Source: Chloroflexota bacterium (GTDB taxonomy: Bacteria; Chloroflexota; Dormibacteria; Aeolococcales; Aeolococcaceae). Taken from it: a stretch of 64,000 nucleotides of DNA. A program made the position numbers and the translations under genes. The stretch is taken from the NCBI GenBank assembly GCA_005880985.1, contig VBIQ01000024.1, positions 6,429 through 70,428 of the forward strand. The letters are read 5' to 3'. The notes beneath the pieces are model-generated. The model had not been told where the DNA came from, searched no databases, and saw only the letters and a program-made list of their open reading frames with translations. Position 1 is the first letter of the stretch, and each line of letters starts with the position of its first letter. Positions 10,632 through 34,935 of the stretch are shown one piece after another.

Positions 10632-12700
10632 GGCGCCGCCATCATCGACAGGGGTCGGTGCACTGTCAATTCAGTGCCGGGGCCGGTGCGGGTGGATGCG
10701 GTGGCGGCACTGTGCCGGTGGTCGGGCTGGACGACCCACGACGCGAGCTGGGTCCGGTTGTCGAGCCGGAGCTTCTGCAGGATGCGGCCCACGTGATGAT
10801 CGACGGTGCGATGGCTGATCGACAGCCGCGCCGCGATCGTCCGGTTGGTGAGGCCCTCGGCGACCAGGGCGCAGACCTCGAGCTCGCGCTCGCTCAGCGC
10901 CTCGCGCGACGCCGGGCGTCCACGCGCCAGGGACCGCTCGATCCGGGCCAGCTCGGCGAGGGCGCCGCAGGCGTGCGCCAGCTGTCGCGCTTCGGCCAGC
11001 GCGGAGGCCGCTGCGGTCGGACGTCCGTTGGCGTCAGAGGCGACGCTGAGGACCCGCAGGGACCGAACGCGCTCCAGGGGGGACACGAGCCGCTGTGCGA
11101 TCGCCTGTTCGGCGGCGTGCAACCCCCCTGCCGTGTCACGCAGCGCCATGCACACCAGTGCGCGCGAGCGGGCGCGAAGTTCCACGGTGAGCGGTGCCGT
11201 CGTACCGGCGGTGAGCGCGTCCAGCCGTTCGACGGCAGCGGTCGCGTTGCCCACCTGCCCTCGGACAAGCTCGGTCTCGACAACGTCGGGAAGCATCGCC
11301 GTCTCGCCGGCAACCGAGCGACACCCTGCCTGGGCGCGGACGGCCCAGGACAGCCACCGGGCGGCGGCGTCGGGACTGCCGCTGTTGGCCAGCGCCCGAC
11401 CCGCCGCCCACGCCGACCACGCCGCGGGGCGAAGTCCCAGCGCCTGCCGGTCGAGGGCGAGCAGCGCGCCGACGACGCGCCGGATGGCCGGCTGGTCGGC
11501 CCGGTCCGCGGCGACCAGGGCTTCCAGGCCCAAGCGGTATGGCGCTGCTGCCGGGAGCACGCGGTCGATGTCGGCGCACGCCGCCAGCAGCGCGGTGCAC
11601 TCCTCGAGCTCTCCGGTCCGCCACCGGCACCACGCCAGGGTGAGAGCCGCGCGCATGTGCGCCGGTCCCGGTGGCTGGCCGTCGAGCGAACGCATCCCGG
11701 CGAGCGCTCGGGTCGTGGCGCCGTCCGCGTCTCCCGCGAGCAGGAGTGCCTGGGCGAGCGCCGGCATCACGTCCGGCACTCGACGCCCGGACATGGCTGC
11801 CTCGGCGCGCTCGATGTGCCGCTCGACCTGCGGTGCATCACCGAGTTCGGCGACCGCGACCGCCGCCAGCGCCTGCGCGTGAGCGGCGGCGCCGGCGTCC
11901 CGGATCGTGGCGGCCGCGGCCAGCGCCTCGCCGGCCAGGTGCAGCGCGCTCGAGGGCGACCCGGATTCGAGAACGCTCCACCCGCGCAGTACGGTGATCC
12001 GGCATTCCCGAGGCTGGTCGCGGCGGGAGGCGCCGTCCGTGCCCGTGGTGGGACGGAAATCACCGGTGGGGATACGCACGCTGCGCAGCGCCTGCTCGAG
12101 GCGGACGCGGTCGTAGCGCGTCCGGTGTCGCGGCGCCAGCTCGTCGGCGAGTGCGGCCAGTACGCCGGGGGTGCCGTTTGCTGACCGCACCAGATGCTCG
12201 ACGAGCGCAGGGCTCAAACGCAGTGCGGTACCGGCCCGCTGCTCGAGCATGGCGATCGAGTCGTCGACGTCGAGGTGGCGCAGTAGCAACCGGCGTCCCG
12301 TGCCCTCGTCGATGCATCGGCGGAGGGGAGCGAGCACACCATTCTGTCCGCGCCCAGGCGGGGTTGTGCACGAGGCGACCAGCAGGACCCACGGGGGACT
12401 GATGGCGTTCGCTGCGAGAATGGTGACGAGCCTGGCGTCCAGGCGGTCGGCGTCGTCGGCGAGGACGACCAGCCGGCGGGAGACCCCGGCCGCGCCATCG
12501 AGGCGCGCCTGCAGGTCACCAGCGGTGACGCCATCGTTGGTCAGGTCCAGCACCTCGAGACCTTGAGCGGTGGCGGCCGCGGCCAGCCATCGCACCAGCG
12601 CCGTCCGCCCGCTGCCGGGGCCGCCCTCGATGAGCGCCGTCGAGGGACCGGCGCCGGAGAGCGCGGCGAGCAGCAGCGACTGCTCGTCTGAACGTCCCAC
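10628..12700 (-). CDS. LAL-family transcriptional regulator (N-terminal AAA/STAND ATPase, TPR-like middle, C-terminal LuxR HTH)
   Basis: The P-loop GGPGSGRTAL is near the N-terminus and the C-terminal LuxR box is ELEVCALVAEGLTNRTIAARLSISHRTVDHHVGRILQKL. The start is set at the GTG/TTG near Val171 of track ORF 10628..13210. The upstream 170 codons are Arg/Ser-rich and overlap the divergent gene. Confidence 0.75.
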   Translation of the reverse strand: MGRSDEQSLLLAALSGAGPSTALIEGGPGSGRTALVRWLAAAATAQGLEVLDLTNDGVTAGDLQARLDGAAGVSRRLVVLADDADRLDARLVTILAANAISPPWVLLVASCTTPPGRGQNGVLAPLRRCIDEGTGRRLLLRHLDVDDSIAMLEQRAGTALRLSPALVEHLVRSANGTPGVLAALADELAPRHRTRYDRVRLEQALRSVRIPTGDFRPTTGTDGASRRDQPRECRITVLRGWSVLESGSPSSALHLAGEALAAAATIRDAGAAAHAQALAAVAVAELGDAPQVERHIERAEAAMSGRRVPDVMPALAQALLLAGDADGATTRALAGMRSLDGQPPGPAHMRAALTLAWCRWRTGELEECTALLAACADIDRVLPAAAPYRLGLEALVAADRADQPAIRRVVGALLALDRQALGLRPAAWSAWAAGRALANSGSPDAAARWLSWAVRAQAGCRSVAGETAMLPDVVETELVRGQVGNATAAVERLDALTAGTTAPLTVELRARSRALVCMALRDTAGGLHAAEQAIAQRLVSPLERVRSLRVLSVASDANGRPTAAASALAEARQLAHACGALAELARIERSLARGRPASREALSERELEVCALVAEGLTNRTIAARLSISHRTVDHHVGRILQKLRLDNRTQLASWVVQPDHRHSAATASTRTGPGTELTVHRPLSMMAAP

Positions 12701-13025: not shown

Positions 13026-16000
13026 GTGGCAGATGCGGCATTCCGCACCGTGGTGGCCCGCATGGCCGCCGACCCCGAGTTCGCGGCCCGAGTGCGCGGC
13101 GATGCGACCTCGGCTCTGGCGGAGTTCGACCTGACCGACGAGGAGCGCGCCCAGCTTGCGCTGCTCGAGTCCGACACCACCTCCTCCGCCGCCAATCTCG
13201 GACAACGCATCAGCAGGTCGTCGCTGTTCTTCGGCGGGTCCGGCGGCAGCGCGCCGCCGGGGACCGTGCCGCACGCCGCCGCCGAGGAGGCCGTGCAGGT
13301 GGCCCAGGCGGGCGATCAGCCGGTGGTCACCGTGCACGAGACGGCGGCGCACGCCATGGCGGCGTCGGGACAGGCGGATCCGACCCTGGCCTCGGCCGAC
13401 CTGGGGCAGGGCGGCCAGCCGAGCCTCGCCTCCGAGATCCAGCACGAGCACGACCTCGATCGGCAGATCGCCGAGTTGCGCATCGAGCGCGATCTGCTCG
13501 ATGCCCGGATCACCGAGCAGACCCTCGCCGGTGGCGGCGATCCCGGGCTCACGTCTCCGGGTGACGGAGGGGCGATGGTTCCGGGCGGTCTGGGGCACGG
13601 CGTGCCCGGTGGTGTCGGCGGGTCGCCGCTCGAGGCGATCCCGTCGCTCGGTCACCCGCACCCCGGCGCACCCCACGGCGGCATGCCTCCCGGGGCGGTG
13701 GCGCATGCGGAAGCGCGCCATCCCGGCGCCCCGGCGGGGCACGCGGGTGGCGGCGTCCCCGGGGCACCGGCGGTGCATCCGGGAGGTGGCAGTCAACCAG
13801 GGGTCCAGGCGCCCGGTGCAGGGGCGGGTTCGGCCGCAACCCCGCACGGCGCCGGAGCGCCGCCGGTGCCTCCCTGGGCGCACCCCGGCGCGATCGCCGC
13901 CGCCGCGCACCCCGGCTCGGCGGCCGCGCCACCGTCGCCGGCGGGGCATGGGCAGCATTCGTTCGGCGGTGGCGCGGTGCGCCCGGGTGCCGGCGCCGGC
14001 GCCGCGACCGCTCCGCATGCGCCCGGCACAACGCAACACCCGGGTGCCGGTGCGGGCACCGCGAGCGCGCCGCATCCGCAGACGGCGGCGCCCGTCCCCG
14101 ACAGCGTCTCGCACTTCGCGCGGTCGGTCCAGGACTACGTGCACCGAACCCACCATCAGCCGAGCGAGGAGTGGTACACGTATCTGCGCCAGCACGGCGC
14201 GCCGCCCGCCGATGACAACTACGGGCCCCCCCCCGTGCATCCCGGGTTCACCGCCCCACGCCCCGGGACGCCCTTCGGACCGTCACCCGCGGCTCCCACC
14301 GTCTCGCCCCAGGACGCGCAGCTGCTACCGCACACCGGCGACCCGGTGGTCGACGCCGCCAACCAGCACATCCTCGCGGACTACCTGCAGCACTACCACC
14401 ACCGGCCGACCGATGCGTGGTTGGCGTACTTCCGCGATTTCGGTCATCCGCCCAAGGACGACCTCTTCGGCATGCCTGGGCACCCTCACCCTGACGGGCC
14501 TCCGGCGGTCGGCCTCAAGCCAAAGCCCGACACGACGACCACCACGTCCAAGCCACCCAAGCCCGGCACCACGACCGGAGGCGGTGGCGGTGGTGGCCGT
14601 CCCAGCGGCGGCGGTGGCGCCGGCGCAAGTGGTGGCCATCCCGGCGGAGGAAGTGGTGGTGGTGGGCAGCCAGCCGGTGGCGGCGGTGGGGGAGGTCACG
14701 GCGGTCACAGTGGTCCCACCCAGCCCGGCGGCAGGGGTGCCAACCCTGATCCGTGGGGAAGCATGGGCGTGCAGGACCCGGGACAGTGGCAGGAGCCGCA
14801 CCCCGGTCCGCATCCGCCGCACCCCGGTGACGGGACGGGCGACCACGGCAAACACGTGCCACCGACGCCCGACTCCACGCACGATCACCTGGGACCTCAC
14901 GGTGAGCTGATCAAGGCCGACGGCAGCCCCATCCTGGGACCACATGGCGAGCTGCTCGGCGCCGACCACAAGCCCATTCTCGGCACCAGTGGCGAACTTC
15001 TCGGACCAGGGATGCAGGGGGTGTTGGGGCCCCACGGCGAAATCGTCGGTCCCGACGGCAAGCCTATCCTGGGCGAGAACGGCGAGATCCTGGGGCGCGA
15101 CGGCTCGCCGCTCACCGGCCCGCACGACGAGATCCTCGGCCCGAATGGAAAGCCGATCCTCGGTGATCACGGCGAGATCCTCGACTTCCACAGCGACCCG
15201 ATCACCGGGCCCCACGACGAGATTCTCGGCCCCGATGGCAAGCCGATCCTCGGAGCCCATGGCGAGATCCTCGACGTCGACGGCAAGTCGATGGTGGGCA
15301 GCAGCGGCGAGATCCTCGGCCCCGACGGGAACCCCGCGCTCGGCCAGCACGGCGAGATCATCCATCCCGACGGATCGCCCTTCCTCGGCAATCTCGGCGA
15401 GCTGCAGGGACCCAACGGCATCCCCGCGCACGGGTCGCACGGGGAGATCCTCGGCCCCGACGGTACGCCGCTCCTTGGGGCGAACAACGAGCTGCTCCGT
15501 CCCGACGGGGATTCGCTCACCGGCGCTCACGGCGAGATCCTCGGTCGCGACGGCACGCCGATCACCGGGTCGCACGGCGAGATCCTCGACCCCGACATGC
15601 ACCAGCTCACCGGTGGGCATGGCGAGATCCTCGGTCCCGACGGCACTCCGGTTTTGGGCAGCAATGGCGAGATCCTGAACACCGACGGCAACGCGATCCT
15701 CGGCAACAATGCCGAGCTGCTCAAGCCCGACGGCACCCCGGTGACCGGTCCGCACGGCGAGGTCCTGGGCGATGGCGGGGCGCCCCTATTGGGTCCCGAC
15801 CACGAACTGCAGGACGCGAACTTCGCACCGATTCTCGGTTCCCATGGGGAGATCCTGGGGGGCGACGGCATGCCGGTGTTGGGCGGCAACGGCGAGCTGA
15901 TGGGCCCCGGCGGACAGCAGATCCTGGGCTCTCATGGCGAGATCCTCGACAGCGGTGGGAAACCGATCCTGGGTCTGAACGGCGAGATCCTCGACACCAA

Positions 16001-16730
16001 TGGCAATCCGATCACCGACTCCAACGGCAACCCGATGGGCGAGAACGGCCAACCGATCGGCGCCAGCACTGGACAAGACGCGTCACAGCAGACAACGAGC
16101 ACGACCGCGGATGGATCGCAACCGACTGCCACGGCCACGTCGGCCGATGCGTCGCAGCAGACCACGGCGACGTCAGACACCACTCAGCAGACGGCGACTG
16201 ATCCGACACAGCAGGCGGCGGCTCAGGCGGCAGTAGATCAAGCGGCCCAGCAGGCGACAGCCGACCAGGCGGCGCAACCGGCGGCCGACCAGGCGGCGCA
16301 GCAGGCGGCGGCGCAAGCGGCAGCGGACCAGGCGGCGCAGCAGGCGGCGGCGCAAGCGGCAGCCGACCAGGCGGCGCAGCAGGCGGCGGCGCAAGCGGCA
16401 GCGGACCAGGCGGCGCAGCAGGCGGCGGCGCAGGCGGCAGCGGACCAGGCGGCGCAGCAGGCGGCGGCGCAGGCGGCAGCGGACCAGGCGGCGCAGCAGG
16501 CGGCGGCGCAGGCGGCAGCCGACCAGGCGGCGCAGCAGGCGGCGGCGCAAGCAGCAGCAGACCAGGCGGCGCAGCAAGCAGCGGCGGACCAGGCCGCGGC
16601 GCAAGCGGCAGCCGACCAGGCCGCGGCACAGGCGGCAGCAGACCAGGCCGCGGCACAGGCGGCAGCAGACCAGGCGGCTGCGGACGCCGCCGCCGCCGCG
16701 TCCGCGGCACCGTCGGACGGAAGCAGCTAA
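13026..16730 (+). CDS. giant acidic repeat protein with N-terminal Nif11/NHLP-type leader-like domain (paralog 1 of 6); His/Pro/Gly-rich region, ~30x 15-aa HGEILGPDGxPILG repeats, C-terminal 13-aa QAAAD repeats
   Basis: GTG start with RBS (Val153 of track ORF 12570..16730). The N-terminus VADAAFRTVVARMAADPEFAARVRGDATSALAEFDLTDEERAQL...GQRISRSSLFFGGSGGS is shared with 5 downstream paralogs. There is no hydrophobic signal peptide. Confidence 0.75.
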   Translation: MADAAFRTVVARMAADPEFAARVRGDATSALAEFDLTDEERAQLALLESDTTSSAANLGQRISRSSLFFGGSGGSAPPGTVPHAAAEEAVQVAQAGDQPVVTVHETAAHAMAASGQADPTLASADLGQGGQPSLASEIQHEHDLDRQIAELRIERDLLDARITEQTLAGGGDPGLTSPGDGGAMVPGGLGHGVPGGVGGSPLEAIPSLGHPHPGAPHGGMPPGAVAHAEARHPGAPAGHAGGGVPGAPAVHPGGGSQPGVQAPGAGAGSAATPHGAGAPPVPPWAHPGAIAAAAHPGSAAAPPSPAGHGQHSFGGGAVRPGAGAGAATAPHAPGTTQHPGAGAGTASAPHPQTAAPVPDSVSHFARSVQDYVHRTHHQPSEEWYTYLRQHGAPPADDNYGPPPVHPGFTAPRPGTPFGPSPAAPTVSPQDAQLLPHTGDPVVDAANQHILADYLQHYHHRPTDAWLAYFRDFGHPPKDDLFGMPGHPHPDGPPAVGLKPKPDTTTTTSKPPKPGTTTGGGGGGGRPSGGGGAGASGGHPGGGSGGGGQPAGGGGGGGHGGHSGPTQPGGRGANPDPWGSMGVQDPGQWQEPHPGPHPPHPGDGTGDHGKHVPPTPDSTHDHLGPHGELIKADGSPILGPHGELLGADHKPILGTSGELLGPGMQGVLGPHGEIVGPDGKPILGENGEILGRDGSPLTGPHDEILGPNGKPILGDHGEILDFHSDPITGPHDEILGPDGKPILGAHGEILDVDGKSMVGSSGEILGPDGNPALGQHGEIIHPDGSPFLGNLGELQGPNGIPAHGSHGEILGPDGTPLLGANNELLRPDGDSLTGAHGEILGRDGTPITGSHGEILDPDMHQLTGGHGEILGPDGTPVLGSNGEILNTDGNAILGNNAELLKPDGTPVTGPHGEVLGDGGAPLLGPDHELQDANFAPILGSHGEILGGDGMPVLGGNGELMGPGGQQILGSHGEILDSGGKPILGLNGEILDTNGNPITDSNGNPMGENGQPIGASTGQDASQQTTSTTADGSQPTATATSADASQQTTATSDTTQQTATDPTQQAAAQAAVDQAAQQATADQAAQPAADQAAQQAAAQAAADQAAQQAAAQAAADQAAQQAAAQAAADQAAQQAAAQAAADQAAQQAAAQAAADQAAQQAAAQAAADQAAQQAAAQAAADQAAQQAAADQAAAQAAADQAAAQAAADQAAAQAAADQAAADAAAAASAAPSDGSS
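14890..16070 (+). repeat. about 30 tandem 45-bp coding repeats (15-aa unit G-x-HGE-I/L-LGPDG-x-P-I/L-L)
   Basis: Direct reading of translation: LGPHGELIKADGSPILGPHGELLGADHKPILGTSGELLGPG...GSHGEILDSGGKPILGLNGEILDTNGNPI. Confidence 0.8.
16210..16700 (+). repeat. about 10 tandem near-identical 39-bp coding repeats (AAQQAAAQAAADQ)
   Basis: The DNA unit gaccaggcggcgcagcaggcggcggcgca(a/g)gcggcagc(g/c) recurs head-to-tail at the 3' end of paralog 1. Confidence 0.8.
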
Positions 16731-16760: not shown

Positions 16761-18521
16761 GTGCTCTGTCCACAGTGTCACATCCACACGGACCCGGACT
16801 TCCCCTACTGCCTGCGCTGCGGGCGTCAGCAGGGCAACGGTTCCCTGAGCGGCTGGGCCCCGCCCGAGTTGCACCCGGTGGAAGCACCCGCGGTCGCCTT
16901 CCCGCTGGTGAAGCGCTCGGTCTCGGTCGGACGCGATGACGCCAACGACATCGTCGTCGAGGACGGTCGGGCGTCACGTCAGCATGCCCGGGTGGTCCGC
17001 GACCAGCAGGGCTATCGCGTCGAGGATCTCGACTCCCTGAACGGCACCTGGGTGAACGACGAGGTGGTGCGCGACTCCGGCCGCCGCCTCAATGATGGAG
17101 ACCTCATCCGCCTCGGGGCAACGCAGCTGCGCTTCGAGCAGCCGCGCACCTCGACGGTGGGGGGTCGGACGGTCGTCGACCTGGCACGGACGACGATGGT
17201 GCAGACCAGCACCGGTGGCATCCGTGAAGGCGACTCGGATGCCGCCGCCGGACCGCCGCTCGACCGCAGGCCCCGGCGCCACTCCGGCTGGGAGCTGAAG
17301 CAGGTTGCATCGGCGCAGAGCGAGCCGCGCTACGTGCTCCGCAACGCGCGCACCGGCCAGTACCTCCAGCTCACCGATCGCGATGTCTTCCTCTGGAACC
17401 TGCTCGACGGGGAGCACACCATCCGCGACCTGCTGCTCGCCTACGCGCAGCAGTACGGGCAGCTGGCGCTCGCACGCATCCAGGGACTGATGTCGCAGCT
17501 CGACGGTGCCGGGCTGATCGCTGGATGGCGGACCGCTCCGCCCGCGCAGTCTCCGGTCAGCGGTCTCCGTCGCGCGGGTCGTGCCACGGTCAAGGCCCTG
17601 ACCCGGATGGAGCTGGCCGTCGGTGGCATCGACGGGTTCCTGGGCCGCTTGTACACGCGTGTCGGCTGGTGGTTCTTCAGCCGTGCCGGCCAGGTCGTCG
17701 TCTGGGGACTGGTCGTGGCCGGGATCGTGGCGTTCTCGGAGGTGCGCAAGAACCAGCGACCCTTCGAGATCGCCGGTGCGGGCATCTGGGGAGTCGTCGC
17801 CGCATTTGCCGGCTACGTTCTCGCACTCACCATCCACGAGCTCGCCCACGCGCTCGCGGTGAAGTCGTACGGTCGGAGGGTCCACCGGGGCGGCCTGATG
17901 GTGATGATGGCGATGCCCTACGCGTTCGTCGACACCAGCGACATGTGGTTCGAGTCACGACGCGCCCGGATCGCCGTCTCCGTGGCCGGCCCGGCGTCCA
18001 CCGCGATGCTCGGGGGGATCCTGTCGCTCGGTGCGGCCTTCCTGCCGGGAGCCATCGCACCCGGCATCTGCTTCCAGGTCGCCTTCGGCCTCTACATCAA
18101 CACCGTTTTCAACCTCAATCCGCTCATCCCGCTCGACGGGTACTACGTCCTCATCGACCTCCTCGATCGCCCCCGTCTCAAGGAGGAGGCGGGCGCCTAC
18201 TTCCGCAAGGGACTCTGGGCCGACCTCCGGCACGGACGTCTGCCCGGCGCCGGTCAGCTGGCCCTTGCCGTCTACGGGGGCATCTCCTTCATCTCCACCA
18301 TCGGGTTCCTGCTGCTCGGCGTCTATGTCTGGCGGACCAGGCTGAGCACCCCCATCCGTGACCACGTCCCCGCGCCCCTCGACCAGGTCATCGTCGTCCT
18401 CGGACTCATCCTGCTGTTCTTCCCCGTGTGGTATGGACCGCTGACCAAACTCTCGCGGGTGGTGCGCCGCCGGCTGGAGAAGCTGCAAACGCCGGTGCAA
18501 CCGCAGCAGGTGCCGGCATGA
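16761..18521 (+). CDS. zinc-ribbon / FHA-domain / M50 (site-2-protease-type) intramembrane metalloprotease fusion
   Basis: N-terminal CPQC...CLRC zinc ribbon. FHA domain (VSVGRDDANDIVVEDGRASRQHARVVRDQQGYRVEDLDSLNGTWVNDEVV...GDLIRLGATQLRF). A polytopic membrane region follows, with the HExxH motif (IHELAHALAV) and the M50 NxxPxxxLDG motif (NLNPLIPLDGYYVL). Confidence 0.8.
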   Translation: MLCPQCHIHTDPDFPYCLRCGRQQGNGSLSGWAPPELHPVEAPAVAFPLVKRSVSVGRDDANDIVVEDGRASRQHARVVRDQQGYRVEDLDSLNGTWVNDEVVRDSGRRLNDGDLIRLGATQLRFEQPRTSTVGGRTVVDLARTTMVQTSTGGIREGDSDAAAGPPLDRRPRRHSGWELKQVASAQSEPRYVLRNARTGQYLQLTDRDVFLWNLLDGEHTIRDLLLAYAQQYGQLALARIQGLMSQLDGAGLIAGWRTAPPAQSPVSGLRRAGRATVKALTRMELAVGGIDGFLGRLYTRVGWWFFSRAGQVVVWGLVVAGIVAFSEVRKNQRPFEIAGAGIWGVVAAFAGYVLALTIHELAHALAVKSYGRRVHRGGLMVMMAMPYAFVDTSDMWFESRRARIAVSVAGPASTAMLGGILSLGAAFLPGAIAPGICFQVAFGLYINTVFNLNPLIPLDGYYVLIDLLDRPRLKEEAGAYFRKGLWADLRHGRLPGAGQLALAVYGGISFISTIGFLLLGVYVWRTRLSTPIRDHVPAPLDQVIVVLGLILLFFPVWYGPLTKLSRVVRRRLEKLQTPVQPQQVPA

Positions 18522-20176
18522 CCGCGACAGCCGTCGGTCCCTTCACGGTCGTCGCCGAGCTCGGCGGGGGGCGCCTTGGTCCGCTCTTCCTCGGCCGCCA
18601 CAGCACGTCAGGTGAGGCAGTCTGTCTGCGTCAGCTGGACCCGGCCTTGCTCGCACATCCGGAAGCCCGCGAGGCGGTCGTCCGTGCGGTGCGTCGCATC
18701 GCGACCACCGAGGCTCCGGGCGTCATCCGAGTCATCGATCTGCTCGAGTCGGGCAACCAGTGGTACCTGGTCAGCGCCCACGTCCCGGGCCCGACGCTGC
18801 GAGACCTGCTCGATCGGTCCCAGGCGCCACGCCTGCACGGCTTCATCGGCGATCCCAGCGCCGCCGCGGTGGTCCTCGGCGACGTCGGCCGAGCCTGCCT
18901 TGCCCTCCACGGTGCCGGCGTGGCTCACGGATCCCTGGGGCCGGCCTCGATCCTCTGCTCCGTCGACGGGGTCGCCCGTCTCGCCGACCCTGCGCTGCTG
19001 GCGATCACCACCGGCACCGCGACCGGGCCAGCCGCGGATGCACGCAGCTGGGGCGACCTCGCTCTTGTCCTGCGGCGGGCCTGGGTTCCGGCCAGAGAGG
19101 GCAGCAACTTCGACCGCGCCGCAGACCGGGCCGAGGCGGGAGACCTCCGGGCCGCAGTCGACACGCTCGACGGTCGCGAGCAGGGGGCGCGAGCGCGACT
19201 CGCCGTGGCGGCATCCGCGTGGGAGGCGACACGCTCGGCCTCGCCGGCGCCGTCCGCCTCGGCGGCAGTTCCCCTGTCCGCGGCAACGTCCGGCTCGGAG
19301 CGACCGACACTGCTCGACATCCCCGGTGCGTCGAGCGCGGCCGACGGCGGTCGTGCAACCGTGATCGAGCCGCCGCCCGCACCGCGGCCGTCGGCAATCC
19401 CGCCACCGCAGCAGACGGTGATCGAACCGCCGGTTCCCGCGCTGCGCGCCTCCGCCAGCGAGACCGTCATCGATCGGCCGCCGCCGAGGGCGGACCCGGT
19501 TGCACCCGCGGCCGGTGCGACCGTCGTCGATCGGCCACCGCCGGTGCCGCCGACAGTGCCACCGCCGGCAGGGTCGCCGCATCGTCTCGGCGCGACCCGG
19601 GCGGCACCTGCCGTGGACCCGCCGCCCACCCGCGCTGCGGGCGGGGTCCGTCCCGGCTCGATGGGTGGCGATGGAAGCGGCACCGCATCCAGTTCCTTGC
19701 TGGTCAGCGACCTCGCCGGTGGCGGCGGACTCCAGCCGGCCTGGCCGGCACCCGCGCCGCGCAGGCGGGAGACGCGCTACCCGCTGCTCATCGGCGCCGC
19801 GGTCGCGGTCGCCGTCATCGTCATCGGTGGTGTCCTGCTGGGCGTCATCCTCCGCCACGGCCAATCGCTGCAGGCCACCGCCGCCCAGGTGCAGATCGCG
19901 ACGCCGCAGGTGGGCTGCAACAGCACCGTCGACGTGGTCGGAGTGATCGGCCTCAACGGCCAGGCGGGAACCGTGGACTACGAGTGGCAGCGCAACGACA
20001 GCACCTCCACCGGAGGCGTGCAGCATCAGACCGTCTCCAGCGGCCAGCAGCAACTGGTCGCGCACCTGTCGTGGTCGCTGTCCGGCCCTGGGACGTTCCA
20101 GGGTCTCGCCACGCTGATCGTCCGCAGTCCCAATGCCCTGGCGCCGGCGCAGGGCAGCTTCCGCTACGTGTGCTGA
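18518..20176 (+). CDS. membrane-anchored protein-kinase-like (probable pseudokinase) protein with TVIE/DPPP repeats and extracytoplasmic C-terminal domain
   Basis: ATG at 18518 overlaps the M50 gene stop (ATGA). The N-terminus has a kinase N-lobe-like fold (FTVVAELGGGRLGPLFLGRH...AVCLRQL...VIRVIDLLESGNQWYLVSAHVPGPTLRDLL). The HRD-region lacks catalytic Asp (GVAHGSLGPASIL) and there is no DFG. The repeats are 4x (T/Q)TV(I/V)(E/D)xPPP. A TM helix LLIGAAVAVAVIVIGGVLLGVIL is followed by a ~130-aa C-terminal domain. Confidence 0.6.
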   Translation: MTATAVGPFTVVAELGGGRLGPLFLGRHSTSGEAVCLRQLDPALLAHPEAREAVVRAVRRIATTEAPGVIRVIDLLESGNQWYLVSAHVPGPTLRDLLDRSQAPRLHGFIGDPSAAAVVLGDVGRACLALHGAGVAHGSLGPASILCSVDGVARLADPALLAITTGTATGPAADARSWGDLALVLRRAWVPAREGSNFDRAADRAEAGDLRAAVDTLDGREQGARARLAVAASAWEATRSASPAPSASAAVPLSAATSGSERPTLLDIPGASSAADGGRATVIEPPPAPRPSAIPPPQQTVIEPPVPALRASASETVIDRPPPRADPVAPAAGATVVDRPPPVPPTVPPPAGSPHRLGATRAAPAVDPPPTRAAGGVRPGSMGGDGSGTASSSLLVSDLAGGGGLQPAWPAPAPRRRETRYPLLIGAAVAVAVIVIGGVLLGVILRHGQSLQATAAQVQIATPQVGCNSTVDVVGVIGLNGQAGTVDYEWQRNDSTSTGGVQHQTVSSGQQQLVAHLSWSLSGPGTFQGLATLIVRSPNALAPAQGSFRYVC

Positions 20177-20189
20177 CGGAGTCGCATCG

Positions 20190-21164
20190 ATGTCGGAGCG
20201 AGTGCTGCGGGTGGTGGTCGAGCGGATGGCCGCCGACCGCGAGTTCTCCGCCCTGGTCAAGCAGGATCCCGAGAACGCGCTCGGCGACTACGACCTCACC
20301 GACGACGAGCGCGGCACCGTCCTCGGCCTCGGCGCCGACGCGACCGGCCGGGCGCATCGACTGGCGCCGCGGCTGACCAAATCATCGCTGGTCTTCGGCC
20401 ACCTCGGGAGAGGCGTCGACCATCTCGGGGCGGCGCACTCGACGGGAGGTCATGAGGCCCCTCTCGATGTGGGGACCCCGGTGCATGGCGCCGTGGATGT
20501 CGGGCTGACGCCGGCATCGGATGCCGACCAGGTCGGGACCTCGTTCACGCCGCACGGGTCGGGAGTCGACATCTTCGAGGGCGTCCCCGCCGGCTGGTCG
20601 CTCCCCGAGCCCGGCGCTCACGGGGATGCCGGGGTCGCCGGCCTCGGGGGCTCGCCGTGGGAGGCCAGCGCCGGAGTCGACACGGCGTCGATGCCTGCCG
20701 ATGCGGCGTCGCATAACCTTGCGTGGGACGCCATGCCGGCGCATGCAGTGGGCACCGGTGTCGCCACCGACCCCGGTGCGCTGAGCATCGGAGCTCACGG
20801 CGACGCGAGCGGTGGTTGGTCGCCGCCGGGTGGTGGAGGAGACGCGGCGGTCTGGCAGCTCCCCCAGCATGGCGATGGCACCGAGGCCGGGCTCGGCGGC
20901 GGTGGTGTTGCAGGGACCGGAGCGGTCGTGCTCGGTGGCCCCGGCGCCGACGTCGAGCGGATCCCCGGTCTCGGCGAGCTCTTCGCGTCCGGGACTGCTG
21001 TCGGCGAGCTCGCCGGTGGCGTGCCCGTCGATGTTCTCGACACATTCGGGAGCCTCGGCCACAGCGTCGTCGCCAGCATGACCACCGCGATCACCACCTC
21101 GGTCGGCGATGCGTTCTCGGTGGGTGCGGCGCCCATCCGGTACATCGAAGACATCAACTGGTAG
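20190..21164 (+). CDS. Gly/Ala/Asp-rich protein with N-terminal Nif11/NHLP-type leader-like domain (paralog 2 of 6, shortest, 324 aa)
   Basis: The N-terminus is MSERVLRVVVERMAADREFSALVKQDPENALGDYDLTDDERGTVLGL...RLTKSSLVFGHLG. ATG at 20190 (Met20 of track ORF 20133..21164). Confidence 0.7.
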   Translation: MSERVLRVVVERMAADREFSALVKQDPENALGDYDLTDDERGTVLGLGADATGRAHRLAPRLTKSSLVFGHLGRGVDHLGAAHSTGGHEAPLDVGTPVHGAVDVGLTPASDADQVGTSFTPHGSGVDIFEGVPAGWSLPEPGAHGDAGVAGLGGSPWEASAGVDTASMPADAASHNLAWDAMPAHAVGTGVATDPGALSIGAHGDASGGWSPPGGGGDAAVWQLPQHGDGTEAGLGGGGVAGTGAVVLGGPGADVERIPGLGELFASGTAVGELAGGVPVDVLDTFGSLGHSVVASMTTAITTSVGDAFSVGAAPIRYIEDINW

Positions 21165-21185
21165 GCGGCTGCAGGGGGAACCGCG

Positions 21186-24100
21186 ATGTCGAGAGACGCA
21201 CTGACCGAGGCGATCGCCAGGATGGCGACCGACGCAGACTTCGCGGAGCGCGTCCGCCATGATCCCGACGTCGCACTCTCCGACTACCCGCTGACCGCGG
21301 AGGAGCGCCGGAGCCTGGCGTCGATGAGCGCCGATGACGCCGGCGGCTCGTCGCCGCTGGGGCAGCGGTTGTCCAAGTCCAGCCTGTTCTTCGGCGCTGC
21401 CGCCGGTGGCGGCGGCGGAGCTGCTGCGCCGGCCGTCGACGATACGGGCTCGGGACGTCCCGACGCGGGCCACGGTGTGGTGCTCGCAGACACCTCGGGA
21501 TCTCCGGGGGGCACCGATGGTCACGGTCATGGTGACGGCGCAGTCGGCGACGGGTCTCACCCTACCGGGGCGCCGATGGATGCCGCCGGACATGCCACCT
21601 CGGTGACGATGGACCTGTACGGCCACCGGCCCCCCGAGGAGATCCCGCCACCGGCCGGCCCCACCGGTCATTCGGTCGCGGCCACCTACGACGCCGACCG
21701 GCACGTCTGGGTCGATGCCGCCACCGGCTCCACCTACGACCCGACCCGCGGCCTTTGGTGGGATCCCAACCGCAGTGTCCACTACGATCCGTGGCACGGG
21801 CTGATCACCGACACTCCGGTTGATTTCGACAAGTTCGTCCACTACGTTCCTGTGCCGCCGGATAGCGGGCCGCTCGGCTCCTCCGTCCACGCCGTCTGGA
21901 GTCCGCACGACGGCGTGTGGATCGACCCATTCACCAACGCCCAGTGGGATGCGGGCCACGGGACCTGGCATGCGCCCTACTCGTCCGACCCCTACCCGTC
22001 GGGGGGCGGAGGCACGCCCGATCCCAAGCCGGCGGCGCAAGATGCCGACGGCACGGTGCACCGCCCTGCGTGGGATCCGGTGCACGGGAGGTGGATCGAC
22101 TACGACCGCGGGACCACGTACAACCCGCAGACCGGCAGCTGGGACCAGGCATTCGAGCGGCCGCCGCTGGGTCCCGACGGGAAGGATGTATCGCCCACAT
22201 GGGCCAACGGTCACTGGACCGACCCGTCGACCGGTGCGCAATACGACTCCCGCTGGCACATCTGGACCAACCTTCCCGGCGGCCACACGTACGATCCGTG
22301 GACCGGCGACCGCGACGTCAGCTCGACGAGCGCTTCCTACTACAACAAGGACGTCCCGGCCACCGACCCCTTCGGGCGTCCGTTCCATCCGGTCTACGAC
22401 CAGGCGACCGGCGACTGGACGGATCCGGTCACCGGCGCCCATTACTCACCGAGCCACCAGTGGGTCTCACCCCTCGACTACCACCGCTTCACGCCCGGTG
22501 AGACGCCGCCCGGCGATCCGCCCGTCGATCCGCAGGGGAGGCACCCGGTGTGGGAGCCGGGGCGAGGTGGTTGGGTTCTGCCGCAGAGCGGTCAGACCTG
22601 GGACCCGGACACCGGGTCGTGGAGCGTGCCGACTCTCGACGCGCCGCCCGCCGGGCCCCACGGCGAGTCCATCGATGCGAGGTGGGACCAGGCGCGAGGC
22701 GTGTTCGTCGACCCGTCGAGCGGTGCGACCTACGATCCGAAGACCGGCGTCTGGGCCGATCCCGGCGGTCAGCGCTGGTACGACCCGTGGAGCGGTAAGA
22801 GCGCCGACCACGCCATCAACGCGGATCCGGCCGACGTGCAGGCGCGGATGCAGGCACCGAATGCCGGTCCTTTCGGCGGTTCGGTCTACCCCAACTGGGA
22901 CCCGGCGACGCACCAGTGGATCGATCCGACGACCGGTGCGCACTGGAACGGTTCCGACTGGGTTGTGCCCGGCAGCGGTCACGTGTACTCCTCCGACGAC
23001 GCGCAGCCGACGAGCGACCCGCCGACGCCGCGCTCGGTCTGGGATCCGTCGACCCAGTCGTGGGTCGAGCCGGTGAGCCAGGTGCCGCCGCCCGATGGTC
23101 CGGCGGGCCCACAGCCCGTGGTCGATGATCCCCACCCGACTGTCACGCTTGGTCCGACCGATACGTACCATTACATCGGCGACGACGGACAGATCCACGT
23201 GCACATCGGAGTCGATGTCAACGATCCGTCGACGTGGCCGCATGGGTGGTGGCCCCCGGGCGTGGATGTCGGCGACTCCTCGACGTGGCCGCAGGGCTGG
23301 GCGCCGCCCGACTCAGCGCAGTCGAGCCTCGATCCCAATGGAATCGAAGGCAGGACTGGCGCGTGGCTCGATGCTCAGGGCAACCTCCACACCTTCGCCG
23401 ACAACCTCGACCCCACCAATCCACACACGTGGCCGTGGGTGCACGCGGACGATCCGACAACATGGCCGCGCGGTTGGATGCCGGAGCAGCCGACCGGCCC
23501 GCACGACCAGACCGTGCCGGACATCCCGACTGATGTTGTCGTGCCGACGTTCGGCGACCCGATGCCAGGTCCGTTCGGCGACTCCATCACACCGATGTGG
23601 GATGACGCGACAGGTCAGTGGGTGGATCCCTACACCGGTGCGCACTTCGATGGCAGCAACTGGACGACGCCGAGCGGCTACGTGCTCACACCCGCGGATG
23701 CGCCGCCGACGCTCAAGCCGTTCACCGGCGACGCGGTGTGGGACCCCCAGCAGCAGGCCTGGGTCGATCCCCGGACCGGGGATCCCCTGCCGCCCGCTCC
23801 AGAGGATGCCGTGATACTGGGCATGGATCAGCCGAGCGGTCTCACGGTCACGCCGCCGTCGGGCCAGGACTGGACCAGCCTGCTTCCGGCACCCGACACG
23901 GCGCCCGGCGGCGATGGCGGAACGTGGCAGAGCCTCCTTGGTCCGGATGGATCGTCGACAGAGACGCCGCCGGTGGACCAGACGCCGCTGGACCAGACGC
24001 CGCTGGATCAGACGCCGCTGGTGGACCAGCCGCAATCCGACCAGCCGCCGCTGGACCAGACGCAATCCGACCAGCCGCCGGTGGACCAGACGCAATCCGA

Positions 24101-24254
24101 CCAGCCGCCGCTGGACCAGACGCAATCCGACCAGCCGCCGCTGGACCAGACGCCGCCGGTGGACCAGACGCAATCCGACCAGCCGCCGGCCGATCAGCAG
24201 ACCACAGACGAGTCACCGTCCGACCAGCAACCGGTCACGCAGTCGGCGAGCTGA
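21186..24254 (+). CDS. giant acidic repeat protein with N-terminal Nif11/NHLP-type leader-like domain (paralog 3 of 6); multiple W-x-DP-x-TG-x-x-YD aromatic repeats; C-terminal PLDQT(Q)SDQP decapeptide repeats
   Basis: The N-terminus is MSRDALTEAIARMATDADFAERVRHDPDVALSDYPLTAEERRSLASM...GQRLSKSSLFFGAAAGGGGG, with RBS GGGGGAA upstream. 1022 aa, no signal peptide. Confidence 0.8.
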   Translation: MSRDALTEAIARMATDADFAERVRHDPDVALSDYPLTAEERRSLASMSADDAGGSSPLGQRLSKSSLFFGAAAGGGGGAAAPAVDDTGSGRPDAGHGVVLADTSGSPGGTDGHGHGDGAVGDGSHPTGAPMDAAGHATSVTMDLYGHRPPEEIPPPAGPTGHSVAATYDADRHVWVDAATGSTYDPTRGLWWDPNRSVHYDPWHGLITDTPVDFDKFVHYVPVPPDSGPLGSSVHAVWSPHDGVWIDPFTNAQWDAGHGTWHAPYSSDPYPSGGGGTPDPKPAAQDADGTVHRPAWDPVHGRWIDYDRGTTYNPQTGSWDQAFERPPLGPDGKDVSPTWANGHWTDPSTGAQYDSRWHIWTNLPGGHTYDPWTGDRDVSSTSASYYNKDVPATDPFGRPFHPVYDQATGDWTDPVTGAHYSPSHQWVSPLDYHRFTPGETPPGDPPVDPQGRHPVWEPGRGGWVLPQSGQTWDPDTGSWSVPTLDAPPAGPHGESIDARWDQARGVFVDPSSGATYDPKTGVWADPGGQRWYDPWSGKSADHAINADPADVQARMQAPNAGPFGGSVYPNWDPATHQWIDPTTGAHWNGSDWVVPGSGHVYSSDDAQPTSDPPTPRSVWDPSTQSWVEPVSQVPPPDGPAGPQPVVDDPHPTVTLGPTDTYHYIGDDGQIHVHIGVDVNDPSTWPHGWWPPGVDVGDSSTWPQGWAPPDSAQSSLDPNGIEGRTGAWLDAQGNLHTFADNLDPTNPHTWPWVHADDPTTWPRGWMPEQPTGPHDQTVPDIPTDVVVPTFGDPMPGPFGDSITPMWDDATGQWVDPYTGAHFDGSNWTTPSGYVLTPADAPPTLKPFTGDAVWDPQQQAWVDPRTGDPLPPAPEDAVILGMDQPSGLTVTPPSGQDWTSLLPAPDTAPGGDGGTWQSLLGPDGSSTETPPVDQTPLDQTPLDQTPLVDQPQSDQPPLDQTQSDQPPVDQTQSDQPPLDQTQSDQPPLDQTPPVDQTQSDQPPADQQTTDESPSDQQPVTQSAS
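23965..24200 (+). repeat. tandem 30-bp coding repeats (PLDQTQSDQP and variants), about 7 copies
   Basis: Direct reading: TPLDQTPLDQTPLVDQPQSDQPPLDQTQSDQPPVDQTQSDQPPLDQTQSDQPPLDQTPPVDQTQSDQPP. Confidence 0.75.
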
Positions 24255-24291
24255 TGGATGGGCACACCGTGTCGGTAGAAGAGGGGGTCTC

Positions 24292-26520: not shown

Positions 26521-26542
26521 GGTCGGTACAAGAGAGGACGTC

Positions 26543-28729: not shown

Positions 28730-28839
28730 CGGTGAGGCGTGATCGCATCGTCGATACGGTGCCTGTCGTGATACCCGAGCTCGCTGGGCCCAGAGGCTGG
28801 CACCCGCGACCACAGGGCCGGTAGAAAGAGGGGGACGTC

Positions 28840-34925: not shown

Positions 34926-34935
34926 CGAGTCGGTC

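What the first reader, a model, noticed from the sequence alone, without database searches (positions are those of the whole stretch)
18518..20176. Translationally coupled membrane pseudokinase with (T/Q)TV(I/V)(E/D)xPPP repeats and an extracytoplasmic C-terminal domain
The ATG lies in an ATGA overlap with the M50 gene stop. The N-terminal ~200 aa thread onto a protein-kinase N-lobe/C-lobe pattern but lack the catalytic HRD Asp and the DFG motif, reading GVAHGSLGPASILCSVDGVARLADP. A Pro-rich repeat linker, a single TM helix and a ~130-aa Cys-containing ectodomain follow. A dead kinase wired to an FHA-protease suggests a scaffold or sensor that relays an extracellular cue.
Basis: inference. Interest (0 to 1): 0.55.

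Follow-up and report, generated by a model that had tools for sequence, protein, structure and literature searches.

The report
Membrane pseudokinase paired with FHA-protease
This gene encodes a catalytically dead, membrane-anchored protein-kinase look-alike from a conserved actinobacterial family that sits with a real kinase, a phospho-threonine-reading membrane protease and that protease's likely substrates, so it is probably the sensor and docking subunit of an undescribed signalling and processing system.

Summary
Window 18518-20176 (+) encodes a 552-aa protein whose ATG overlaps the stop of the upstream FHA-RRE-M50 gene (ATGA).

- **Domains:** residues 1-241 are a compact kinase fold. The β3 Lys is Arg, HRD is HGS, and the catalytic-loop Lys and Asn are lost. 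DFG is DPA, so its Asp is kept.
- **Rest of the protein:** a 180-aa disordered Pro-rich linker carries four xTV(I/V)(E/D)xP repeats. One TM helix and a 106-aa two-Cys β-sandwich ectodomain follow.

- It belongs to a conserved "HG" pseudokinase family: at least 74 clusters at 50% identity, mostly actinobacterial genomes plus soil metagenomes.
- In about 30 Streptomyces species the gene order is fixed: NHLP-like-leader protein, FHA-RRE-M50 protease, an "HRDYKP" kinase, then the pseudokinase.
- Here the partner kinase lies 15.5 kb downstream (35712-37376, −). Six leader-bearing giant proteins flank the pair.
- The Thr motif is enriched about 5-fold in family linkers. The Ser equivalent is not enriched, which fits FHA docking.

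Best reading (inferred, not shown): a receptor and phospho-scaffold subunit that gates an FHA-bearing leader peptidase. I judge it a new variant of a known kind, closest to MviN-FhaA and YukC-YukB. No phosphorylation, binding or cleavage has been tested.

The parts
18518..20176 (+). Pseudokinase gene, 552 aa (NCBI TMC47660.1, 'hypothetical protein')
18518..19240 (+). Cytoplasmic pseudokinase domain, residues 1-241. GGGRLG loop; R38 in place of the β3 Lys; E52; H137-G-S in place of HRD; S144 in place of Asn; D157-P-A in place of DFG. The activation segment is shortened: 17 residues from D157 to the αF Asp D174.
19241..19780 (+). Disordered Pro/Ala-rich juxtamembrane linker, residues 242-421, pLDDT below 50. 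Contains the family motif HRLG (RFGPG in relatives).
19355..19537 (+). Four Thr-centred repeats: ATVIEPP, QTVIEPP, ETVIDRP and ATVVDRP (T281, T300, T316, T335). A degenerate PTLLDIP lies at 19304-19324.
19787..19855 (+). Single TM helix, residues 424-446, preceded by RRRETR (N-terminus inside)
19856..20173 (+). Extracytoplasmic 7-strand β-sandwich (Ig/CARDB-like) with invariant C467 and C552
16761..18521 (+). Zn-ribbon, FHA (G57-R, S72-xx-H75, N94-G intact), PqqD/RRE and M50/S2P protease (H359-ELAH, NLNPLIPLDG, 5 hydrophobic segments) in one protein. Its stop overlaps the pseudokinase ATG.
35712..37376 (-). Active Ser/Thr kinase of the cassette-partner family (HRDYKPAN, DFG, GYGHGWEEQG). The TM helix follows directly after the kinase domain; the C-terminal tail is poly-Pro.
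13026..16730 (+). Leader-bearing protein g1234: NHLP-clan-like 75-aa N-terminal domain followed by a low-complexity body
20190..33231 (+). Five further leader-bearing paralogues: 20190-21164, 21186-24254, 24292-26520, 26543-28729 and 28840-33231
9339..10631 (-). FHA plus VirB11/T2SSE-like ATPase. Homologues sit near the cassette in metagenomic relatives L047-L049.
10628..12700 (-). AAA/STAND-LuxR (GerE) regulator, transcribed divergently from the operon

Best explanation
The gene encodes the non-catalytic receptor and scaffold subunit of a kinase/pseudokinase pair.

Shown:
- It is a type-I-like membrane protein with a dead kinase fold inside the cell, a long disordered linker carrying repeated Thr motifs, and an Ig-like two-Cys domain outside.
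- It belongs to a conserved family that is almost always encoded with one particular active kinase family. It is usually also encoded with an FHA-RRE-S2P protease and a protein carrying an NHLP-like leader.

Inferred:
1. The ectodomain, alone or with the partner kinase's paralogous ectodomain, perceives an extracytoplasmic cue.
2. The pseudokinase domain pairs with and regulates the HRDYKP kinase.
3. The kinase phosphorylates the A-T-[VL]-[LIV]-[DEG]-x-P threonines in the pseudokinase's linker. The kinase itself has almost no cytoplasmic linker.
4. These pThr sites dock the FHA domain of the RRE-S2P protease, and perhaps that of the FHA-ATPase.
5. Docking switches on or positions removal of the leader from the six neighbouring giant proteins.
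For: Dead active site:
- Substitutions appear in pairwise alignments to PknE and StkP.
- They hold in 33 genome-derived relatives and 77 aligned representatives. H137 is kept in 76 of 77 and G138 in 71 of 77. The β3 Lys is absent from all 74 members without an HRD motif. The DFG Asp position is E in 56 and D in 19.

Fold and topology.

Family size: 74 of the top 150 representative clusters have the pseudokinase plus ectodomain without HRD.

Synteny: of 40 loci with the pseudokinase, 35 have the partner kinase, 31 the FHA-M50 gene and 29 a leader protein, in the order leader, M50, kinase, pseudokinase. The same 4-nt overlaps occur at the cassette junctions in L004 and L047.

Partner kinase in this window: 56% identical over 263 aa to the Streptomyces cassette kinase. 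It scores 270-357 bits against cassette kinases and 109-131 bits against unrelated kinases. It shares the HRDYKP and GYGxxWEExG motifs.

Thr motif in the cytoplasmic linkers of 70 family members:
- T[VIL][VILM] occurs 62 times against 11.6±3.3 in shuffles (maximum 22 in 300 shuffles).
- S[VIL][VILM] occurs 10 times against 9.6 expected.
- By established knowledge, FHA domains bind pThr and not pSer.

The pThr-binding residues of both FHA proteins are intact. The partner kinase's TM helix follows within about 10 residues of its kinase domain, so it offers no linker of its own.

The protease is homologous to the daptide RRE-dependent intramembrane leader peptidase (NF041824, E 5.5e-39; PMC10028931).

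Precedents:
- The MviN pseudokinase is phosphorylated by PknB and recruits FhaA (PMC12599244).
- The YukC pseudokinase domain binds the FHA domains of the YukB ATPase (PMC9600267).
Against: - No phosphorylation, binding, ligand or cleavage data exist for any member.
- The +3 residue of the Thr motif, the main FHA specificity position, varies: D/E here and G in Streptomyces.
- 30 of 70 family linkers have no such motif.
- Some relatives (L027, L039, L046, L050) have only the kinase/pseudokinase pair and no FHA-M50 nearby. The protease link is therefore not universal.
- In this window the kinase lies 15.5 kb away on the other strand, so co-regulation is not assured.
- The window clade keeps GxGxxG, the αC Glu and the DFG Asp, so nucleotide binding or residual activity is not excluded.
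- The ectodomain fold is generic and gives no clue to a ligand.
Confidence: 0.5

Rival explanations
1. The protein is purely an allosteric partner, activator or inhibitor, of the HRDYKP kinase through kinase-domain dimerisation. It has no direct contact with the FHA-protease. The FHA domains read phospho-sites elsewhere, on the kinase or on the leader proteins.
For: The kinase/pseudokinase pair is the most conserved unit: 35 of 40 loci, and it occurs without FHA-M50 in L027, L039, L046 and L050. The two proteins look like tandem paralogues with the same architecture. Back-to-back dimers are known for bacterial STPKs and for the MviN pseudokinase (PMC12599244).
Against: It does not explain the Thr-specific, repeated linker motif. 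It also does not explain why this lineage kept the pseudokinase, not the kinase, translationally coupled to the FHA-protease.
Confidence: 0.22
2. The pseudokinase is itself a substrate of the M50/S2P protease. After a cue and phospho-dependent FHA docking, its TM helix is cut and the pseudokinase domain is released into the cytoplasm. This would resemble anti-sigma factors cut by RseP or RasP.
For: It is a single-pass, N-in membrane protein encoded next to an S2P-type protease, overlapping it by 4 nt. The TM helix contains the helix-weakening IGG. The protease active-site motifs are intact.
Against: The protease carries an RRE and resembles a leader peptidase, and matching leader domains are encoded alongside it in 29 of 40 loci. 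The Streptomyces TM helices lack Gly-Gly or Pro. No site-1 protease or released-domain effector function is evident.
Confidence: 0.12
3. The protein keeps an atypical catalytic or nucleotide-dependent activity, as WNK or CASK do, and is not truly dead.
For: The window clade keeps GGGRLG, E52 and D157. Arg replaces the β3 Lys, a substitution compatible with ATP binding in some pseudokinases (PMC12599244). 15 of 77 family members have HGD.
Against: The catalytic base Asp, the catalytic-loop Lys and the Mg-binding Asn are all missing here. The activation segment is truncated. Most of the family has a degenerate Gly loop with Trp at the adenine-pocket position, GTW.
Confidence: 0.08
4. It is a decaying duplicate of the neighbouring kinase with no function of its own.
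For: It shares the partner kinase's architecture and has lost the catalytic residues.
Against: It is intact and conserved in at least 74 clusters at 50% identity. Family-specific invariant residues include H137, G138, W490, C467 and C552. The linker motifs are conserved and the synteny spans Streptomyces, Sinosporangium, Allorhizocola and soil MAGs.
Confidence: 0.03

Closest known systems
MviN (Rv3910) pseudokinase with PknB and FhaA in Mycobacterium tuberculosis; the ActPs3 family of O'Boyle et al. (PMC12599244; bioRxiv 10.1101/2025.01.12.632604)
   Same: Both are actinobacterial membrane proteins with a degraded kinase domain and a shortened activation loop. [quoted passage not shown] In MviN a cognate active STPK phosphorylates a Thr in the tail, which recruits an FHA protein. 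The logic proposed here is the same.
   Different: - Here the pseudokinase is a stand-alone single-pass protein, not fused to a lipid II flippase.
- The ectodomain is a two-Cys Ig-like sandwich, not a carbohydrate-binding module.
- The FHA partner is an RRE-S2P protease (plus an FHA-ATPase), not FhaA.
- The DFG Asp is kept here, whereas 98% of ActPs3 members lack it.
- MviN did not appear among the top 60 sequence hits or the top 50 fold hits. Assignment to ActPs3 could not be tested.
YukC/EssB, the membrane pseudokinase of the type VIIb secretion system (PMC9600267)
   Same: Both have an N-terminal cytoplasmic pseudokinase, one TM helix and a C-terminal extracellular domain. YukC binds the FHA domains of a partner ATPase, YukB/EssC, and acts as an assembly hub. 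An FHA-ATPase is also encoded here at 9339-10631.
   Different: There are no T7SS genes in the window: no EssC/FtsK-type ATPase and no WXG100 protein. Pfam and NCBIfam report only Hanks-type kinase models for this protein. YukC-FHA binding is thought to be phospho-independent, whereas here an active kinase and Thr motifs are present.
MpaP, the RRE-dependent intramembrane leader peptidase of daptide biosynthesis (PMC10028931). This is the closest relative of the coupled upstream gene.
   Same: Both fuse an RRE/PqqD domain N-terminally to an S2P/M50 protease. Both are encoded beside several precursor genes that share a conserved N-terminal leader.
   Different: The score is 134 bits against an equivalog cut-off of 300. 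The window protein has an extra Zn-ribbon and FHA domain. Its 'precursors' are 324-1463-aa low-complexity proteins with an NHLP-like leader, not short peptides. No daptide tailoring enzymes were detected, and a kinase/pseudokinase pair is present instead.
Receptor pseudokinase plus active kinase pairs in eukaryotes, such as HER3-HER2
   Same: A ligand-facing dead kinase partners with an active paralogue, and its phosphorylated tail serves as a docking platform for phospho-binding domains.
   Different: This is an analogy only (own knowledge). There is no homology beyond the kinase fold, and the reader domains are FHA/pThr rather than SH2/pTyr.

Membership tests
Hanks-type protein kinase superfamily (Pfam PF00069 fold) | Significant match to the Pkinase profile | tested here: met
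   E 8.5e-8, 32.3 bits against a cut-off of 31.7, but only profile positions 2-141 of 263 are matched.
Hanks-type protein kinase superfamily (Pfam PF00069 fold) | Bilobal kinase fold | tested here: met
   AF2 residues 1-241 at pLDDT about 85-93. Foldseek matches PknA, PknI, PAK1 and CDK2 at E about 1e-10, with PknI at target TM 0.71-0.73.
Catalytically competent Ser/Thr kinase | β3 Lys, HRD Asp, catalytic-loop Asn and DFG Asp all present | tested here: not met
   R38, S139 and S144 replace the Lys, Asp and Asn. D157 is retained but within DPA. The losses are family-wide.
ActPs3 bacterial pseudokinase family (O'Boyle et al.) | Loss of the VAIK Lys and the HRD Asp | tested here: met
ActPs3 bacterial pseudokinase family (O'Boyle et al.) | Loss of the DFG Asp (98% of members) | tested here: not met
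   D157 is retained in the window clade. The wider family has E in 56 and D in 19 of 77 at this position.
ActPs3 bacterial pseudokinase family (O'Boyle et al.) | [quoted passage not shown] | tested here: met
   17 residues separate D157 from the αF Asp D174, against about 36 in PKA (own knowledge). The TM helix is at 424-446.
ActPs3 bacterial pseudokinase family (O'Boyle et al.) | Assignment by the authors' constraint-based models, or clustering with MviN | not testable with these tools
   The models and supplements are not held. MviN was not among the listed top sequence or fold hits.
MviN-FhaA-type phospho-scaffold module | A cognate active STPK and an FHA protein genetically linked to the pseudokinase | tested here: met
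   35 of 40 loci have the HRDYKP kinase and 31 of 40 the FHA-M50 gene. This window has both.
MviN-FhaA-type phospho-scaffold module | Thr phosphorylation of the pseudokinase tail and pThr-dependent FHA binding | not testable with these tools
   The support is indirect only: a Thr-specific linker motif and intact FHA pThr-binding residues.
EssB/YukC T7SSb pseudokinase | Encoded in a T7SSb locus with an EssC/YukB FtsK-type ATPase and WXG100 substrates | tested here: not met
   No such domains were found in the scanned neighbours.
Daptide-type RRE-S2P leader peptidase (NF041824), for the coupled upstream gene | Score above the equivalog cut-off | tested here: not met
   134.4 bits against a cut-off of 300. 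The proteins are homologous but not equivalent.
NHLP-clan leader (NF038399 Os1348 family), for the neighbouring proteins | Score above the domain cut-off of 40 bits | tested here: inconclusive
   The five downstream window proteins and two Streptomyces proteins score 23-39 bits, just under the cut-off, and g1234 (13026-16730) has no NF038399 hit at E ≤ 0.01. All six window leaders, g1234 included, align with one another over about 75 aa.
Known anti-phage defence systems (PADLOC) | System-specific components beyond a generic kinase domain | tested here: not met
   Only kinase-domain hits (PD-T4-6, mad6) appear. The protease, the leader proteins and the FHA-ATPase have none.

The most novel reading that the evidence does not exclude
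The pseudokinase is the receptor and phospho-docking subunit of a previously unrecognised, phosphorylation-gated protein-maturation system. A surface cue activates the HRDYKP kinase. Multi-site pThr marks on the pseudokinase linker then recruit an FHA-RRE-S2P protease, and an FHA-ATPase. The protease strips an NHLP-type leader from very large, low-complexity proteins, which releases or activates them. This would extend RiPP-style leader and RRE logic to whole proteins and place it under Ser/Thr-kinase control.
Probability: 0.3. Interest if true: 0.8.

Novelty: new variant of a known kind. Interest (0 to 1): 0.62.

Why it matters
Bacterial pseudokinases have been catalogued, but only MviN and YukC/EssB have any functional data (PMC12599244). 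This family offers a third model that could be studied directly.

- It has a dedicated partner kinase, a Thr-specific linker motif and two FHA-bearing effectors encoded alongside it.
- It is present in culturable Streptomyces, where genetics is feasible.
- It may be the first case of an FHA domain gating an RRE-dependent intramembrane peptidase.
- It may be the first case of NHLP-type leaders on 300-1500-aa proteins.

If the model is right, Hanks-type signalling would be connected to RiPP-like leader processing. I found no paper describing that link in six full-text searches.

Tried and rejected
- **Word-indexed homologue searches.** Searches with the single protein and with two family alignments returned only 4-5 real relatives. 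Taken alone this suggests an orphan, which is wrong. The exhaustive representative search and the genome scan showed a large family.
- **Placement in ActPs1-3.** The Atlas supplements are not held. MviN was not visible among the listed top hits. Placement is unresolved.
- **Esr threat-sensing pathway (PMC13622651).** It was considered because of its STK, FHA and pThr-in-disordered-region logic. It was rejected as the same system because Esr needs MoxR, vWA and β-propeller components, none of which turned up in the window proteins scanned here.
- **Known defence systems.** PADLOC gave only generic kinase hits.
- **Alternative GTG start at 18428.** Rejected because the MTAT N-terminus is conserved.
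- **Overlapping ORFs in other frames.** The long ORFs 18608-20260 (−) and 18760-20376 (+) were treated as high-GC artefacts; the window is 71% GC. No further analysis was done on them.
- **LTDDER in the leaders as a pTxxE FHA site.** Not pursued. By own knowledge it is a common helix-capping feature of Nif11/NHLP leaders.

Full report
**1. The observation**

The ORF at 18518-20176 (+) is open for 552 codons. Its ATG shares three bases with the TGA of the upstream ORF 16761-18521 (…ggcATGAcc…).

An upstream GTG at 18428 would give a longer ORF. Three things argue against it. The gene callers of NCBI, JGI and ENA all give the 552-aa product. The N-terminus MTATAVGPF is conserved in a 64%-identical metagenomic relative. 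A recognisable form, MTTATTVAG, appears in Streptomyces proteins.

NCBI holds the protein as TMC47660.1, 'hypothetical protein', from a soil MAG labelled Chloroflexi/Chloroflexota. The window is 71% GC.

**2. The kinase-like domain**

- *Sequence.* Pfam Pkinase matches residues 10-157 just above its gathering score: 32.3 against 31.7 bits, E 8.5e-8, covering only profile positions 2-141 of 263.
- *Alignments.* phmmer against PDB sequences puts PknE and StkP first. The printed alignments show CLRQL opposite VALK, so the β3 Lys is Arg. They show GVAHGSLGPASIL opposite GATHRDVKPENIL. That means HRD is HGS, the catalytic-loop Lys is Gly and the Asn is Ser. They show ARLADPA opposite AYLVDFG, so the Asp is kept and Phe-Gly is lost.
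- *Retained features.* The Gly loop GGGRLG and the αC Glu (E52) are kept.
- *Structure.* The full-length AlphaFold2 model gives residues 1-241 at pLDDT about 85-93, with a five-strand N-lobe, αC and a compact helical C-lobe. Foldseek against the PDB returns protein kinases at E about 1e-10. The compact M. tuberculosis PknI domain is covered at target TM 0.71-0.73.
- *Activation segment.* It is short: 17 residues from D157 to the αF Asp D174, against about 36 in PKA (own knowledge).

**3. Linker, TM helix and ectodomain**

- *Linker.* Residues 242-421 are predicted disordered. They carry ATVIEPP, QTVIEPP, ETVIDRP and ATVVDRP, plus a weaker PTLLDIP. The repeats are also visible in the DNA, spaced 57, 48 and 57 nt apart.
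- *TM helix.* One strongly hydrophobic segment, residues 424-446, follows RRRETR. That places the N-terminus inside the cell.
- *Ectodomain.* The last 106 residues were modelled alone from a 5-sequence alignment. They form a seven-strand β-sandwich at pLDDT 93.5.
- *Fold class.* The nearest solved folds are CARDB, complement MG domains and the FnIII-like domains of GH3 enzymes (E about 1e-4, TM about 0.55-0.6). This is a generic Ig-like fold and does not point to a ligand.
- *Cysteines.* C467 and C552 are invariant in every relative aligned. This fits a disulfide in an extracytoplasmic domain, which is an inference.

**4. A conserved pseudokinase family**

The word-indexed searches found only four relatives. 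The exhaustive profile search of 1.84 billion representatives gave 75 hits at E ≤ 1e-30. Of the top 150:

- 74 have the pseudokinase-like domain plus the ectodomain and no HRD motif;
- 7-9 are canonical HRD/DFG kinases carrying the same ectodomain;
- 57 are short proteins or fragments with the ectodomain only.

The genome scan found 40 loci, mostly in Streptomyces species. Others were in Sinosporangium, Allorhizocola and uncultured Actinomycetota.

Across 77 aligned members:

- H137 is kept in 76 and G138 in 71;
- the catalytic-Asp position is A, S, D or G (31, 15, 15, 10);
- the β3 position never holds Lys outside three active outliers;
- the Asn position is mostly Thr;
- DFG reads [E56/D19]-x-[G58].

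Most members also have a degenerate Gly loop with Trp at the adenine-pocket position (…FGTWHAL). The window clade is the least degraded. The loss of catalytic residues is therefore old and maintained, not a recent decay.

**5. Genomic context**

- *Upstream gene (16761-18521).* It encodes a Zn-ribbon and an FHA domain with the pThr-binding G-R, S-x-x-H and N-G residues intact. A PqqD/RRE domain and an M50/S2P protease with HELAH and NLNPLIPLDG follow. Its best NCBIfam hit is the daptide intramembrane metalloprotease (E 5.5e-39, below the equivalog cut-off). That enzyme is described as an RRE-dependent intramembrane leader peptidase (PMC10028931).
- *Leader proteins.* Six genes on the same strand begin with the same ~75-aa domain, …ALARMAsDxxFAxxVRxxxxxALAxYxLTDdERxxLA…LGQRLSKSSLFG-Gly-rich. 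They are 13026-16730 upstream and 20190-33231 downstream. The five downstream proteins score just under the cut-off of the NHLP-clan model NF038399, and the upstream one (13026-16730) has no hit to it. The rest of each protein is a 250-1400-aa low-complexity body. No TM segment was detected in any of them.
- *Streptomyces cassette.* In Streptomyces the order is leader protein, then FHA-RRE-M50 (E 1e-160 to 1e-178 against the window protein). A canonical kinase follows, then the pseudokinase.
- *Counts.* Over 40 loci that carry the pseudokinase, 35 have the kinase, 31 the protease and 29 a leader protein. Most of the rest are cut by contig ends.
- *Soil-metagenome relatives.* L047-L049 add an FHA-ATPase like window 9339-10631, and in one case a PP2C phosphatase.
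- *Junctions.* The 4-nt overlaps are the same at the M50/kinase and kinase/pseudokinase junctions of L004 and L047.
- *Pair-only loci.* A few relatives carry only kinase/pseudokinase pairs, once duplicated in tandem.

**6. The missing kinase**

In this window and in the P0002 contig the pseudokinase follows the protease directly.

The cassette kinases form a recognisable family, with HRDYKPxN and usually GYGxxWEExG just before the membrane segment. The ORF at 35712-37376 (−) is a member. It is 56% identical over 263 aa to the Streptomyces cassette kinase.

The partner kinases have their hydrophobic segment within about 10 residues of the kinase domain. They therefore lack a cytoplasmic linker. 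The pseudokinase supplies a linker of about 180 aa.

In Streptomyces the kinase also ends in a two-Cys β-rich domain that aligns weakly with the pseudokinase ectodomain. This suggests the pair arose by tandem duplication.

**7. The Thr motif**

The test used the cytoplasmic linkers of 70 family representatives, with TM segments removed.

| Pattern | Observed | Shuffled expectation |
|---|---|---|
| T[VIL][VILM] | 62 (in 40 proteins) | 11.6 ± 3.3, maximum 22 in 300 shuffles |
| T[VIL][VILM][DEG] | 42 | 2.0 |
| S[VIL][VILM] | 10 | 9.6 |
| S[VIL][VILM][DEG] | 1 | 1.7 |

The consensus is (D/G/A)-(P/E/A)-x-A-T-(V/L)-(L/I/V)-(G/D/E)-x-P. Several members carry 4-6 copies. A second linker motif, RFGPG (HRLG in the window protein), occurs 45 times against 3.4 expected.

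Thr-but-not-Ser specificity is what an FHA-read phospho-site would predict, because FHA domains discriminate pThr from pSer (established knowledge; see also PMC9600267). This is circumstantial. No phosphorylation has been observed.

**8. Mechanism**

The best-supported model is a receptor and scaffold pseudokinase.

1. It pairs with the HRDYKP kinase.
2. It is phosphorylated on its linker threonines.
3. The pThr sites recruit the FHA domain of the RRE-S2P protease, and possibly that of the FHA-ATPase.
4. This couples an extracytoplasmic cue to leader removal from the neighbouring proteins.

What is shown: the architecture, the dead active site, the family conservation, the synteny, the motif statistics and the intact FHA and protease motifs. 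What is inferred: every interaction and the direction of signalling.

Rivals, in order of weight:

- a purely allosteric partner of the kinase;
- the pseudokinase as a substrate of regulated intramembrane proteolysis;
- residual or atypical catalysis, since the window clade keeps GxGxxG, the αC Glu and the DFG Asp;
- a functionless decaying duplicate, which is the least likely given the conservation.

**9. Comparison with known systems**

- *MviN.* The closest functional precedent is the MviN pseudokinase. PknB phosphorylates it, and it then recruits FhaA (PMC12599244).
- *YukC/EssB.* Its pseudokinase domain binds the FHA domains of the YukB ATPase in T7SSb (PMC9600267).
- *ActPs3.* The family resembles ActPs3 of the bacterial kinome atlas: actinobacterial, degraded motifs, activation-loop deletion and a C-terminal TM segment. 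The retained acidic residue at the DFG position does not fit. Formal assignment could not be tested.
- *Not the same system.* It is not a YukC/EssB member, because there is no T7SS context. It matches no PADLOC system beyond generic kinase hits. It is not the Esr pathway.
- *Literature.* Six full-text searches found no paper that links an FHA-RRE-S2P protease, NHLP-like leaders on large proteins and a kinase/pseudokinase pair. The library covers open-access papers only.

**10. Verdict**

The pseudokinase is a new variant of a known kind, a bacterial membrane pseudokinase that works with FHA proteins. It sits in a conserved multi-gene system that appears to be undescribed. Interest is moderate to high. 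The main weakness is that every mechanistic step is inferred from sequence and synteny.

Noticed in passing
window 13026-16730 and 20190-33231 (+): Six paralogous genes encode proteins of 324-1463 aa. Each starts with the same ~75-aa NHLP-clan-like leader ending …LGQRLSKSSLFG, followed by a Gly-rich stretch. The rest is a low-complexity body rich in Gly, Pro, Thr, Asp and Gln. No TM segment or signal peptide was detected. Leaders of this kind are normally found on short RiPP precursors.
   Followed up: partly
window 21186-26520 (+): The 1022-aa and 742-aa leader proteins contain many W-x-D-P-x-T-G-x-x-Y-D/N-like repeats. These produce Pfam OCRE and Extensin hits. What the repeats are is unknown.
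   Followed up: no
window 26543-33231 (+): The 728-aa and 1463-aa leader proteins share nearly identical first ~200 residues. Both contain runs of (T/S)DQQ(S/P) tandem repeats (…TDQQSTDQQSTDQQ…). This suggests recent duplication and repeat expansion.
   Followed up: no
window 9339-10631 (-): The FHA plus VirB11/T2SSE-like ATPase has GIARSGRTS where a Walker A GxxxxGKT is expected. Arg replaces the Lys, so it may be a degenerate ATPase. Homologues lie next to the cassette in L047-L049.
   Followed up: no
window 35712-37376 (-): The partner kinase ORF ends in an extreme poly-Pro tract (…[22 protein letters not shown]…) and an Arg-rich tail. Its Streptomyces orthologues end in a two-Cys β-rich domain instead. 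This could be real divergence or a frame problem in the MAG.
   Followed up: no
window 33255-35033 (-): A PrsW-family intramembrane metalloprotease (E 6.4e-15) lies between the leader-protein operon and the partner kinase. It is a second membrane protease in the neighbourhood.
   Followed up: no
window 10628-13210 (-): An AAA/STAND-type NTPase with a C-terminal LuxR/GerE HTH is transcribed divergently from the operon. It is a candidate regulator. The gene callers start it at 12700, while the longest ORF reaches 13210.
   Followed up: no
window 1525-4393 (-): Tad/Flp-pilus-like genes lie upstream: a T2SSE (CpaF-like) ATPase, a weak T2SSF hit and a SAF/CpaB-like protein.
   Followed up: no
L046 4743-11719: One actinobacterial genome (GCA_003594875.1) carries two kinase/pseudokinase pairs in tandem. 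The second kinase reads HRDCRPGN. No FHA-M50 gene is nearby.
   Followed up: partly
window 16761-16830 (+): The FHA-RRE-M50 protein begins with a CxxC…CxxC zinc-ribbon (CPQCHIHTDPDFPYCLRCG). It is conserved in the Streptomyces orthologue (YCLHCG). Its role is unknown.
   Followed up: no
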